Positions 29,182 to 31,582 of a stretch of 61,498 nucleotides of DNA are shown piece by piece (position 1 is the stretch's first letter; every line of letters begins with the position of its first letter). The notes beneath the pieces are model-generated. The model saw only the letters and a program-made list of their open reading frames with translations, was not told where the DNA came from and searched no databases. The DNA is from Candidatus Woesearchaeota archaeon (lineage in GTDB: Archaea; Nanobdellota; Nanobdellia; SCGC-AAA011-G17; GW2011-AR18), in the NCBI GenBank assembly GCA_016179945.1, contig JACPCE010000004.1:1-61498 (forward strand). The letters run 5' to 3'. The position numbers were made by a program, and so were the translations under genes.

Positions 29182-29337
29182 GGGCTCGTAGCTCAGCCCG
29201 GTAGAGCATCTCCCTTGCATAAAACTTTTTGGGAAAAAGTTTTTTCAAAATGTGATCAAGGTAGGAGGGGGCCGTGGGTTCGAAAATAACAATGGGTTTA
29301 TTACAAATCCTTGTATCGAAGAGTCCCACCGAGTCCA
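29182..29337 (+). tRNA. trnA: tRNA-Ala(TGC) in the ITS, with introns at 37/38 (29220-29262) and in the T-loop (~29285-29323)
   Basis: Acceptor GGGCTCG/CGAGTCC-A with G3-U70; BHB CTTG/CAAG with GT^A bulge; T-loop intron with TTCG/CGAA helix and 4-nt loop. Confidence 0.92.
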
Positions 29338-31582
29338 TTCACACTTTTAAAAAAACTGTGATTAAAAATAAACTTTGAAAAAGTTTGAGCAAAAAAGAAA
29401 TTACACATCATATTAACCAATTCATAGGTTACAAGTTTTTAGGAAAAAGCTTGAGTAAAAATAAGAAATGAGGCTCGTCAACAAAAGTTACGGGTTGATC
29501 GGATTAAACATCATGTTTAACCGGTGCATAGATTCTTGTATATTCGGTCCTACTAAGCCATTAGACGGATGACTTGGCTCAGGTTAAGATGAAGAGCGTG
29601 GCAAGCAGCGATATGCTCTGGGTAGGCGCATGCAGCCATTGAACCAGAGATGCTTGAATGAGACTTCTTATCCTTCGGGATGATTAGTAATAATATATAA
29701 CGCAGGGAATTGAAGCGTCTTAGTACCTGCAGGAAAAGAAATCAATTGAGATGCCGTAAATTATCAGCGAGAGAAAGCGGTGTAGAGCAAACTGAATCCT
29801 CGTAGAAATACGTAAGGAGATGTGGGGTTATAGGACTTGTATTTAGTCTTCATTTTTATATGCCAAAACTTCTGGAAAGAAGTGCCATAGAGGGTGATAG
29901 CCCCGTAGGTGTGAAAAATAAGATGAACGAGTATCCTGAGTAGGGTTTGTTGGAAATCAAGCCTGAATTTGGGAGGCACTAACTTCCAACTCTAAATATA
30001 AACCTGAGTCCGATAGATTACGAGTACCGTGAGGGAAAGTTGAAAAGAACTCGTGGAAGAGAGTAAAAAGCTCCTGAAATCTAATGGTCATAGTATGTTA
30101 CTGCTCTAAGGAGTTGTAACGTACGTTTCGAATAACGGGCCGGGGAGTGCATTTCAGTGGCAAGGATAAGGCTATTAAGGCAATATCCGTAGGGAAACCA
30201 ATAGTTCGCAACTTGTGAGGAACAATGTATGAAAATGCTTTAAGTCACTGGAGTGTGACCCGAAACCGGGTGATCTAACCTTGGGCAAGGTGAAGCAGGG
30301 GTAAAACCTTGTGGAGGCCTGAAGAGGTTCTGTGTGCAAGCGTTCTTCTGACTTAAGGTTAGGGGTGAAAGGCCAATCGAACCCGGTGATAGCTGGTTCC
30401 TACCGAAATGGGCCGCAGTCCAGTCCTCGAGGAGATAGTTAAAGAGGTAGAGATACGGATTAGGGGTTTAGGCTTCGAAAGGAGTCGATCTCTTGTCCAA
30501 CTCCCAATGCTTTAACATCGTAGAATTGAGGAAACGGCGTTACTGGGGTAAACCTGTAATGCTAGAGGGGAACAACCCAAGACTGTAGTTAAGGTCCCTA
30601 AATATTGGTTAAGTGTTAAAGGGTGAAGGATGTTTATTACCGAATACAGTAGGGAGGTAGGCTTAGAAGCAGCCATCCTTTAAAGAAAGCGTAACAGCTC
30701 ACCCATCTAGGTGATATGCTCCTAAAATGGACGGGGCTAAACCAATTACCGATACTACAGATCGCCTTGTATAAGGTGTGTGGTAGGTAGGTATTCTATG
30801 TAGGCAGAAGCTTCTGCGTAAGCAGGAGTGGACTGCATAGAAATAAAAATCCCGGCAGTAGTAGGATCGATACAGAGTGAGACTCTCTGATACCGAAAGG
30901 GCAAGGGTTTCTTGGCCATGTAAGTCAGCCAAGAGTTAGTTGATCCTAACTTTAGAATTTTAATTGATTCAAGGGAAAGGGAAAACGGTTAATATTCCGT
31001 TACCATTCAAATACGTGCGGCAACGCAAGCTATAGGATAGACATTTCTGGCTAGGCTAGCACTTACTGTCGTGAGTGTTAATTAGGATAAATCTTGGGAG
31101 TAATGTAATGTTGAGAACAAGATTAAACTGAGAATAGCAGGCTTATGCTTGTCTAGTTTATGCCTGGAATCACTGAAAATGTCTTATAGAAGGATTTTGA
31201 ATGATCATACCCAGAACCAACACTGGTGCCCCTAGGTGAGAAGCCTAAGGTAGGAGGGAGTAATCTAGCTAAGGGAACTCGGCAAATTAGCCCCGTGCCT
31301 TTGGTGTAAGGGGTCCCTGCGTTTGTGTACTTAAGTATGCAAATACAGGGTGCAATAACAAGGGCGGTCCGACTGTTTACCAAAAACACAACCTCTCGCA
31401 AGTCCGTAAGGATTAGTACGCGAGGTGACGTCTGCCCAGTACCAGTAATTCAAACCTCTTTTCAAGGAGGCTAAGATCTGGCAAACGGCGGGAATAACTA
31501 TGATTCTCTTAAGGTAGCGAAAAGACAGTTAGTTCGTGCAATTAAAATCTGCAATAAACTTTTATAAAAAGTTTGAACAAAA
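29221..31582 (+). repeat. Dispersed ~28-nt hairpin-plus-tail repeat, 5 copies (29221-29250, 29340-29367, 29369-29394, 29432-29460, 31555-31582)
   Basis: Approximate consensus YAAACTTTT-NNN-AAAAGTTTG-ANYAAAA; all copies in the same orientation. Confidence 0.7.

What the first reader, a model, noticed from the sequence alone, without database searches (positions are those of the whole stretch)
29221..31582. A ~28-nt hairpin repeat found only in excised RNA (introns and ITS)
Seen: five same-orientation copies, in the tRNA-Ala intron, three times in the ITS and in the 23S intron. The stem varies while pairing is mostly kept (AAAC/GTTT, CAAGT/GCTTG, CACA/TGTG), followed by an ANYAAAA-like tail. 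I found no clear copy in coding DNA. Inference: a REP-like or miniature mobile element sheltered by splicing and perhaps seeding introns, or a protein-binding tag for RNA processing.
Basis: partly seen in the sequence, partly recalled or inferred. Interest (0 to 1): 0.72.

Follow-up and report, generated by a model that had tools for sequence, protein, structure and literature searches.

The report
Hairpin repeat colonising introns and spacers
A 33-base hairpin with an A-rich tail recurs in this small archaeon's tRNA and rRNA introns and rRNA spacer, and related genomes carry dozens of copies between genes, so it is most likely a miniature spreading repeat that persists here only where RNA is cut out.

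Summary
All five copies are at the stated places, in the same orientation. Genome noise is 23 bits or less. A weaker tRNA-Ser intron copy brings the total to eight, all inside introns or the 16S-23S spacer. A weight matrix trained on relatives only finds 5 own copies against 0.13 expected.

The repeat is not confined to excised RNA across the order. 17 of 40 related genomes have it, up to 53 copies each. Most of those are intergenic, often starting at a stop codon. One lies in an RNase P RNA loop.

Filled and empty orthologous sites show that copies are gained. The stem shows strong compensatory variation. In tRNA introns the hairpin sits exactly where the outer helix of the bulge-helix-bulge (BHB) splice motif belongs, and one intron is the element alone. 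No RAYT/IS200 transposase goes with it.

Best reading: a REP-like dispersed hairpin element of unknown mobility, tolerated in and sometimes forming spliced RNA. A functional RNA tag remains a live rival. Splicing itself was not shown by RNA data.

The parts
29220..29254 (+). Copy 1: hairpin plus tail at the 5' end of the tRNA-Ala(UGC) 37/38 intron
   Evidence: R2 35.1 bits. The hairpin starts at intron nt 2, directly after a 3-nt bulge that follows the exon 4-mer pairing 4/4 with an intron segment 13 nt after the hairpin.
29339..29371 (+). Copy 2 (ITS_a), starting 2 nt after the tRNA-Ala 3' end
   Evidence: R2 43.6 bits. Outer stem differs from the other copies, with one C.C mismatch.
29368..29400 (+). 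Copy 3 (ITS_b), abutting copy 2; short T3/A3 inner stem
   Evidence: Weak with the models (16.8 bits with R1; not listed with R2 at E<=10), but the best right-half weight-matrix score in the genome, 23.8 bits. Fold.
29431..29464 (+). Copy 4 (ITS_c), G-C subfamily stem, about 25 nt upstream of the conserved block that precedes the 23S processing stem
   Evidence: R2 42.2 bits; -6.9 kcal/mol, z -3.8.
31554..31586 (+). Copy 5, inside the 23S rRNA intron, about 30 nt from its 5' end
   Evidence: R2 43.4 bits; weight matrix from relatives 34.6 bits.
29182..29337 (+). tRNA-Ala(UGC) gene with two introns: 29220-29262 at 37/38, and about 29285-29323 in the T-loop (no copy there)
   Evidence: Read from the sequence and by comparison with six relatives' tRNA-Ala genes. 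ARAGORN finds nothing here.
29338..29539 (+). Spacer between tRNA-Ala and 23S. The stretch up to the conserved block is 122 nt here, against 16-44 nt in six other genera
31523..31695 (+). 23S rRNA intron (173 nt) with a bulge-helix-bulge junction: 3-nt bulges, a 4-bp helix (3 standard pairs plus A.G), and a 12-bp inner helix
   Evidence: The exons are contiguous in 7 other genera. G002 of the same genus has an unrelated intron at the same site. Junction read.

Best explanation
The five copies belong to a dispersed family of about 33-nt hairpin elements that is widespread in this archaeal order. Each has a 9-bp AU-rich stem with one C-G pair, a variable loop, and an A-[T/G]-C-AAAA tail.

Copies arise by insertion or copying through an unknown route that does not depend on a RAYT transposase. 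They persist only where 33 extra bases do no harm: between genes (often starting on the stop codon), in variable RNA loops, in rRNA spacers, and in BHB introns.

In this genome only the copies in RNA that is cut out have survived or been admitted.

Inside tRNA introns the hairpin sits immediately after the 3-nt 5' splice bulge. There it serves as the outer helix (h') of the splice motif, while a separate exon-complementary segment further 3' makes the central helix. In at least one relative the element alone is the whole intron. The element can therefore supply, and perhaps found, an intron.

Shown: family membership, excess over chance, locations, gain and loss at orthologous sites, stem covariation, and the geometry relative to splice bulges.

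Inferred: mobility as the cause, harmlessness through splicing, and founding of introns.
For: 1. Family and excess over chance.

2. Spread. 17 of 40 relatives carry it (10 of 24 in the family). G028 has 53 copies, G038 33, G029 14. All 4 of 4 genomes of G038's genus have 33-46 copies.

3. Unit length. All-against-all BLAST of the flanks gives similarity of 20-40 nt, apart from overlapping loci, tandem copies and one IS.

4. Filled versus empty sites.
- The spacer stretch is 122 nt here and 16-44 nt in six genera. The tRNA-Ala 37/38 intron is absent in G021, G014 and G010, or unrelated in sequence in G004, G015 and G003.
- The tRNA-Leu T-loop site is empty in G001 C26 and G004 C1, holds a 31-nt element-only intron in G008, holds the element plus an extension in G000 and G001 C27, and holds unrelated introns in G001 C11 and G004 C37.
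- The S4|S11 junction is a 30-31 nt spacer filled by the element in 3 of 3 readable genomes of genus g30. It is -4 to +1 nt in the 5 of 6 genomes of five other genera where it could be read; G105 gave no S11 ORF. The S13|S4 junction is 79-172 nt against -1 to +2 nt in all six.

5. Decay. Orthologous tRNA-Ser and tRNA-Gly intron copies within the genus have lost the tail or the stem.

6. Geometry. In 7 tRNA-intron copies a 4-nt exon word ending exactly 3 nt before the hairpin pairs 4/4 with an intron word 11-21 nt after it.

7. A splicing endonuclease alpha subunit is encoded.

8. Location statistics in this genome.
Against: - No transposase goes with it. Y1_Tnp is absent from G028, G038, G029 and G026, and the own-genome Y1 genes have no copy nearby. 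TnpB is present only in G038 and G028, and only 3 of the 9 full-length tnpB loci examined (11 family matches, 2 of them fragments) have copies or variants 3' of the gene.
- No target duplication, terminal inverted repeat or target word was found in the flanks.
- The loops differ between copies while the stem and tail are held. The consensus is the same in distant families, and both subfamilies co-occur in each genome. That looks like selection as much as recent copying.
- At the orthologous S13|S4 site four species keep a hairpin plus A-tail through different sequences. This points to a function in RNA.
- In this genome all copies are in the sense orientation, which a blind DNA insertion would not predict.
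- No RNA data show that any of these introns is actually spliced.
- The R2 counts are lower bounds and depend on the model: 150 of about 2,000 candidates were scored.
Confidence: 0.55

Rival explanations
1. The hairpin plus tail is a functional cis-acting RNA element, recognised by a conserved host protein. It might be a processing, decay or chaperone tag for excised RNA, or an intercistronic stabiliser in mRNAs. Its many copies are then kept by selection, however they first arose.
For: - The stem is 99.2% paired over 97 distinct copies. Four of 9 pairs change on both sides, and all four Watson-Crick types occur at the outermost pair. The covariation score is 0.26 against 0.09 in shuffles, with 0 of 500 shuffles reaching it.
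- The tail is nearly invariant and co-varies with stem pair 5-26: A-T with ATC in 51 of 62 copies, G-C with AGC-like tails in 27 of 32.
- The consensus is the same across families.
- Copies in stable-RNA genes are in the sense orientation, 8 of 8 here.
- The hairpin is retained with different sequences at the orthologous S13|S4 site in four species.
- About 10 of 60 copies in G028 and G038 flank ribosomal-protein or RNA polymerase genes.
Against: - Orthologous introns and spacers in other genera work without it.
- Copies decay within the genus.
- 23 of 40 relatives show none at E<=0.05.
- Antisense copies exist upstream of tRNAs and inside an RNase P RNA loop.
- Alignment A6 was selected by and fitted to the model, and two subfamilies can mimic covariation.
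- No candidate protein was identified.
Confidence: 0.22
2. The copies reflect only intron-to-intron copying (intron transposition or gene conversion among stable-RNA genes, as described for Thermoproteales). The intergenic copies in other genomes would be a secondary spill-over.
For: - In this genome and most of its family the copies lie in tRNA introns at several positions: 37/38, the T-loop and the D-loop.
- The review PMC4090602 (passages) reports near-identical introns at different positions in Thermoproteales tRNA genes.
Against: - Most copies in G028, G038 and congeners are intergenic. 44 of the 60 examined are not tRNA-associated.
- The shared unit is only the hairpin plus tail. The exon-pairing 3' part of each intron is specific to its exon.
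Confidence: 0.1
3. It is a DNA-level transcription signal: the 3' arm plus tail acts as a BRE/TATA-like promoter, or the whole unit acts as a terminator-promoter cassette.
For: - This genome's tRNA promoters carry a word of the type AAAAG-TTTAAA at about -40 to -26, which resembles the 3' arm plus tail of the commonest subfamily.
- Intergenic copies lie between a stop codon and the next start.
- Antisense copies abut the 5' ends of tRNA genes in three relatives.
- The TTTAAA box at -26 in Nanoarchaeum is taken from PMC3491384 (passages).
Against: - It does not explain the covariation between the arms.
- At S4|S11 the start codon is only about 12 nt after the TATA-like word, and the element sits inside an essential operon.
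- In element-only introns a start site would fall inside the 3' exon.
- The right half alone is rare in this genome: 23 hits at 13 bits or more, and the top ones are the known copies.
- The own-genome copies have G at the position that would make the TATA word.
Confidence: 0.07
4. Chance low-complexity hairpins in an AT-rich genome.
For: - The genome is about 29% G+C.
- A loose descriptor gives 71 hits, and 1,899 T-run/A-run hairpins exist without the tail.
- The folding energies are weak.
Against: See, and the recovery of the same motif in relatives.
Confidence: 0.01

Closest known systems
Bacterial REP elements (REPINs) with RAYT transposases
   Same: Short (20-40 nt) imperfect palindromes with a conserved flanking word. 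Tens of copies per genome. Extragenic and intercistronic, often just after stop codons. The stem is conserved and the loop is free.
   Different: No RAYT/Y1 HUH gene accompanies the copies. The conserved word is an A-rich 3' tail rather than a 5' tetranucleotide. This family is archaeal, and copies also lie inside tRNA and rRNA introns. The REP features listed are recalled, not taken from a call.
tRNA intron families spread by 'intron transposition' in Thermoproteales (Fujishima et al. 2010, known here only through the review PMC4090602, passages)
   Same: [quoted passage not shown] A BHB motif at the junctions. The mechanism is unknown.
   Different: Here the shared unit is only a 33-nt module at the 5' end of the intron. 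The same module is also found in an rRNA intron, the rRNA spacer, an RNase P RNA loop and many intergenic sites. The original paper was not read.
Mobile C/D box sRNA genes of Nanoarchaeum equitans (PMC3491384, section 10 read)
   Same: Small RNA-sized modules found next to tRNA genes, in tRNA introns and at gene borders. Mobility is suspected and the mechanism is unknown.
   Different: No box C or box D motif is present, and no Rfam family matches in the window apart from rRNA and tRNA. The unit is half the size.
IS200/IS605-derived miniature elements (palindrome-associated elements) and TnpB omega-RNA regions
   Same: Hairpin-bearing short repeats. In G038 one tnpB subfamily has copies 50-150 nt after its stop codon.
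   Different: Only 3 of the 9 full-length tnpB loci examined show this (11 matches, 2 of them fragments). G029, G026, G001 and G000 have copies but no TnpB. No left-end/right-end pair was found.

Membership tests
REP/RAYT system | Many dispersed short imperfect palindromes, mainly extragenic | tested here: met
   33-53 copies in G028, G038 and congeners, mostly intergenic. In G000 there are only 8, all in introns or the spacer.
REP/RAYT system | A RAYT (Y1 HUH, IS200-like) gene in the genome, typically flanked by the repeats | tested here: not met
   PF01797 gave no match in G028, G038, G029 or G026. G000 and G001 each have 2 genes, but no R2 hit above 16 bits lies within about 1.5 kb of them.
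MITE | Terminal inverted repeats flanked by a target-site duplication | tested here: not met
   The flank logos show no duplication and no flank-to-flank pairing: 60 of 97 copies have 0 pairs and the maximum is 4. The only inverted repeat is the hairpin itself.
Archaeal BHB intron (as the setting of the window copies) | Two 3-nt bulges separated by a 4-bp helix at the exon-intron junctions; exons contiguous in relatives | tested here: met
   The 23S intron junction was read, and its exons are contiguous in 7 genera. tRNA-Ala 37/38: CTTG/CAAG helix with 3-nt bulges. Removal in vivo was not shown.
Thermoproteales-type transposed tRNA intron family | The similarity covers the intron as a unit and is confined to tRNA genes | tested here: not met
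   Only the 33-nt module is shared, and the 3' parts are exon-specific. Copies also lie in rRNA, the spacer, RNase P RNA and intergenic DNA.
C/D box sRNA | Box C and box D motifs with a guide region | tested here: not met
   No Rfam match at gathering score in the window other than rRNA and tRNA. No boxes are visible in the copies.
Archaeal BRE/TATA promoter | A fixed distance of about 25 nt to a transcription start upstream of a gene | tested here: inconclusive
   There is a sequence resemblance. However, the distances to start codons range from 0 to 171 nt, the S4|S11 spacing is about 12 nt, and no start-site data exist.
CRISPR array | Regularly spaced identical repeats with unique spacers | tested here: not met
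   The spacer copies abut each other or lie 30 nt apart, and they differ in stem sequence.

The most novel reading that the evidence does not exclude
The element is a self-sheltering mobile hairpin. Wherever it lands in a stable-RNA gene, its stem supplies the outer helix next to a 3-nt bulge. Its A-rich tail, or a short 3' extension, pairs with U-rich tRNA loop words. The host splicing endonuclease then removes it.

If so, it is a concrete vehicle by which archaeal BHB introns are born, and the same vehicle also spreads through intergenic DNA.
Probability: 0.25. Interest if true: 0.85.

Novelty: new variant of a known kind. Interest (0 to 1): 0.62.

Why it matters
How archaeal tRNA and rRNA introns arrive is an open question. 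[quoted passage not shown] It found no general route.

Here one recognisable 33-nt module is shared by:
- introns at several tRNA positions,
- an rRNA intron,
- an rRNA spacer,
- a ribozyme loop,
- dozens of intergenic sites.

Clean filled and empty sites exist, and one intron is nothing but the module. That gives a testable candidate for an intron-founding element. It also points to a REP-like repeat family in small-genome archaea that has no RAYT.

Four searches of the held library turned up no description of such a repeat. The library is incomplete.

Tried and rejected
- MAFFT alignments of the copies (A1, A2, A4) were not consistent with the structure because the T-run lengths vary. I built R1 from four co-linear copies (A3) and then R2 from the model-made alignment A5.
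- Loose regular-expression descriptors were unspecific: 71 and 1,899 hits.
- ARAGORN finds no tRNA in the window and only 15 in the genome. The Rfam-based scan lists 14. The intron territory is therefore underestimated.
- RAYT/IS200 link: rejected.
- TnpB link: only one tnpB subfamily in G038 has copies.
- Longer parent element: none found.
- Target-site duplication or target word: none found.
- The idea that the tail generally pairs with the 5' flank to give a self-contained BHB is rejected. Observed pairing equals the permuted controls at gaps 0 and 0-3.
- Right half as a general promoter in this genome: rare.
- Read laying. DNA contigs of two further runs from the same study as the best holder carry the spacer and the 23S intron region without differences. 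They are not independent evidence. The two RNA runs hold only diverged 23S parts from other organisms. There is no evidence on splicing, expression or polymorphism.
- My first guess at the orthologous r-protein loci in G136, G082 and G094 was wrong. It was replaced by a DNA search.
- Earlier findings of this scan: none for this genome.
- PMC12558985 (passages) did not bear on the question.
- One search was an empty script.
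Full report
SETTING

The window is contig C21 of a 782-kb archaeal genome in 27 contigs, about 29% G+C and 73.8% complete. Positions 27490-32640 hold an rRNA operon. It comprises 16S rRNA (interrupted twice), tRNA-Ala(UGC) at 29182-29337 with two introns, a spacer, and 23S rRNA with an intron.

The 23S intron runs from 31523 to 31695.
- Its ends form a 12-bp helix.
- The junction has two 3-nt bulges around a 4-bp helix (three standard pairs plus A.G) (read).
- In seven other genera of the family the two exons are contiguous.
- G002, of the same genus, has an unrelated intron at the same site.

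A splicing endonuclease alpha subunit of 207 aa is encoded on C11. According to passages of PMC5829648, alpha-type enzymes with an extra loop in DPANN lineages go with heavily disrupted tRNA genes. I did not test which type this enzyme is.

THE OBSERVATION

The common plan has five parts:
- an outer stem of 4-5 pairs whose letters differ between copies,
- one C-G pair,
- T3-5 paired with A3-5,
- a loop of 2-4 nt,
- a tail of the type A/G-n-Y-AAAA.

MAFFT could not align the arms consistently. I therefore built a covariance model from four co-linear copies and rebuilt it from the six best hits.

In the whole genome the second model gives six hits at 35-44 bits. They are four of the five window copies, a copy in the tRNA-Gly(CCC) 37/38 intron on C12, and one in the T-loop intron of a tRNA-Leu on C26. 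After those, nothing scores above 22.8 bits.

A copy in a tRNA-Ser intron on C3 scores 18.9 bits with the second model. Both are in or below the noise range but are plain by eye. A collapsed remnant sits in the D-loop intron of the same tRNA-Leu.

A weight matrix trained only on copies from other genomes finds five own copies at 23 bits or more. Thirty simulated genomes gave a mean of 0.13. All eight copies are in the sense orientation. All lie in about 1.2 kb of intron and spacer, out of about 83 kb of DNA not covered by ORFs (a rough estimate, because many tRNA genes escape detection).

The hairpins themselves are weak: -2.8 to -8.5 kcal/mol.

RELATIVES

The model finds the motif in 17 of 40 genomes of the same family or order at E<=0.05.

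| Genome | Copies | Relation |
|---|---|---|
| G028 | 53 | same order |
| G038 | 33 | same order |
| G029 | 14 | same order |
| G026 | 8 | same order |
| G001 | 6 | same genus |

. All four genomes of G038's genus have 33-46 copies. These are lower bounds, since only 150 candidates per genome were scored.

In G028 and G038, 44 of the 60 copies examined are not tRNA-associated.
- They lie between genes in either orientation: 16 are sense between co-directional genes, 8 antisense, 6 between convergent genes and 5 between divergent genes.
- In 13 of 24 cases with a same-strand upstream ORF, the stop codon is the TAA inside the first four bases of the motif (crude ORF calls).
- About ten copies flank ribosomal-protein or RNA polymerase genes.

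One antisense copy sits in the P3 loop of the RNase P RNA of G027. Antisense copies abut the 5' ends of tRNA genes in G012, G028 and G038.

'Only in excised RNA' is thus a property of this genome, not of the family of repeats.

THE UNIT AND ITS STRUCTURE

Flank comparisons show that the repeated unit is only 20-40 nt.

Over 105 hits (97 distinct):
- The stem is paired in 99.2% of cells.
- The outermost pair takes all four Watson-Crick forms: U-A 50, C-G 25, A-U 8, G-C 8.
- Pair 5-26 is A-U in 62 copies and G-C in 32.
- No shuffle or slid register comes near these values.

The second tail letter goes with pair 5-26: T with A-U, G with G-C. This may be two subfamilies rather than a contact.

The alignment was chosen by and fitted to the model, which favours pairing. 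Even so, copies with one mismatch would still have passed the score threshold.

GAIN AND LOSS

Four comparisons show filled and empty orthologous sites.

1. Spacer. Between tRNA-Ala and the conserved block before 23S there are 122 nt here and 16-44 nt in six other genera, none with a copy. The tRNA-Ala 37/38 intron is absent in three of them and has unrelated sequence in the other three.

2. tRNA-Leu T-loop. Paralogous and orthologous genes take several forms.
- No intron in G001 C26 and G004 C1.
- A 31-nt intron that is the element and nothing else in G008.
- The element plus a short extension that perfects the central helix in G000 and G001 C27.
- Unrelated introns in G001 C11 and G004 C37.

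3. r-protein operon of family f15.
- The S13|S4 junction is -1 to +2 nt in all six genomes of five other genera.
- The S4|S11 junction is -4 to +1 nt in the five of those six where it could be read.
- In genus g30 the S4|S11 spacer is 30-31 nt and is the element, running from the stop codon to a few bases before the start codon.
- The S13|S4 spacer in g30 is 79-172 nt and holds hairpin variants.

4. Another tRNA intron carries the element in G006 but not in this genome.

Within the genus the tRNA-Ser and tRNA-Gly intron copies have drifted. The tail is lost in G001 and the stem in G002.

At the S4|S11 site two species have the A-U subfamily and one the G-C subfamily. That suggests replacement by another family member rather than point mutation.

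PLACE IN THE SPLICE MOTIF

In seven tRNA-intron copies a 4-nt exon word ends exactly 3 nt before the hairpin. The seven are tRNA-Ala and tRNA-Gly here, three introns of one tRNA-Ser in G038, and two others. That exon word pairs 4/4 with an intron word 11-21 nt after the hairpin.

The hairpin is therefore the helix that closes the 5' splice bulge. The central helix is made by a separate, exon-specific segment.

Across all copies the tail does not pair with the 5' flank more often than in permuted controls. The element is therefore not a complete splice motif by itself. In the element-only intron of G008 the tail gives 3 of 4 pairs with the T-loop word (my reading).

WHAT MOVES IT

No answer was found.
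- The Y1 transposase family is absent from the four highest-copy genomes searched. It is present twice here and twice in G001, without copies nearby.
- TnpB occurs only in G038 and G028. One subfamily there has copies after its stop codon.
- No target duplication or target word is visible.

RIVALS

A functional RNA element is the serious rival. Four observations favour it:
- the same consensus in distant families,
- free loops with fixed stems and tails,
- retention of a hairpin plus A-tail through different sequences at one orthologous site,
- the sense bias in stable RNA.

Against it stand the empty orthologous sites, the decay within the genus, and the antisense copies.

A promoter or terminator reading rests on the likeness of the 3' arm plus tail to this genome's tRNA promoter word. 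It fails on arm-to-arm covariation, on the spacing at S4|S11, and on the element-only introns. The right half alone is also rare here.

KNOWN RELATIVES OF THE IDEA

- Bacterial REP elements. The features are recalled from memory, and their defining RAYT link is not met here.
- Thermoproteales intron transposition. I know this only through passages of the review PMC4090602. The original paper was not read.
- Mobile C/D box sRNAs of Nanoarchaeum (PMC3491384, section 10).

Four library searches gave no description of this repeat. The library lacks most subscription journals.

LIMITS

- No RNA evidence was obtained.
- Gene calls in relatives are my own crude ORFs.
- tRNA exon boundaries outside the Rfam alignments were read by eye.
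- Taxonomy was not established beyond 'archaeal rRNA and small AT-rich genome'. The runs that hold the sequence are labelled groundwater metagenomes.

Noticed in passing
window 27490-29131: The 16S rRNA gene is interrupted twice, at about 28222-28330 and about 28620-28676. The first insert has a different AU hairpin followed by a word like the tail, but it does not score with the models.
   Followed up: partly
window 7531-7653: A tRNA-Trp(CCA) with a 48-nt intron that contains box-C/D-like words. Rfam tRNA 45.7 bits. ARAGORN finds it only when introns are allowed.
   Followed up: no
G000 genome-wide: tRNA genes are so interrupted that ARAGORN finds 15 and the Rfam-based scan 14. Several have two or three introns, including D-loop and T-loop positions.
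   Followed up: partly
G000:C14:30649-31008 and G000:C18:6730-7077: Two intact IS200-type Y1 transposase genes (90 and 85 bits), plus a fragment near the tRNA-Gly/tRNA-Leu pair on C12. None has a hairpin copy beside it.
   Followed up: partly
L013 (G027:C6) 1462-1805: The archaeal RNase P RNA has a 49-nt insertion in the P3 loop that contains an antisense copy of the element.
   Followed up: partly
L100, L106, L098, L102 (G038): The 3' ends of some tnpB genes and the 50-150 nt after them (the expected guide-RNA scaffold region) contain the element and variant hairpins with related tails. A shared word follows at the presumed element end.
   Followed up: partly
upstream of tRNA genes in G000 (for example C12:12940 and C12:59391): The tRNA promoters share a word of the type AAAAG-TTTAAA about 26-40 nt before the mature 5' end. 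It is close to the 3' arm plus tail of the commonest element subfamily.
   Followed up: partly
L154-L166 (family f15 r-protein operon): Outside genus g30 the S13, S4 and S11 genes abut or overlap by up to 4 nt. In g30 each junction has been opened by 30-170 nt of hairpin elements, without visible Shine-Dalgarno words before the next start.
   Followed up: partly
window 31687-31695 and L122 (G002): The 3' end of the 23S intron repeats the last bases of the upstream exon, seen as a 9-nt overlap of the BLAST pieces. G002's unrelated intron does the same.
   Followed up: no
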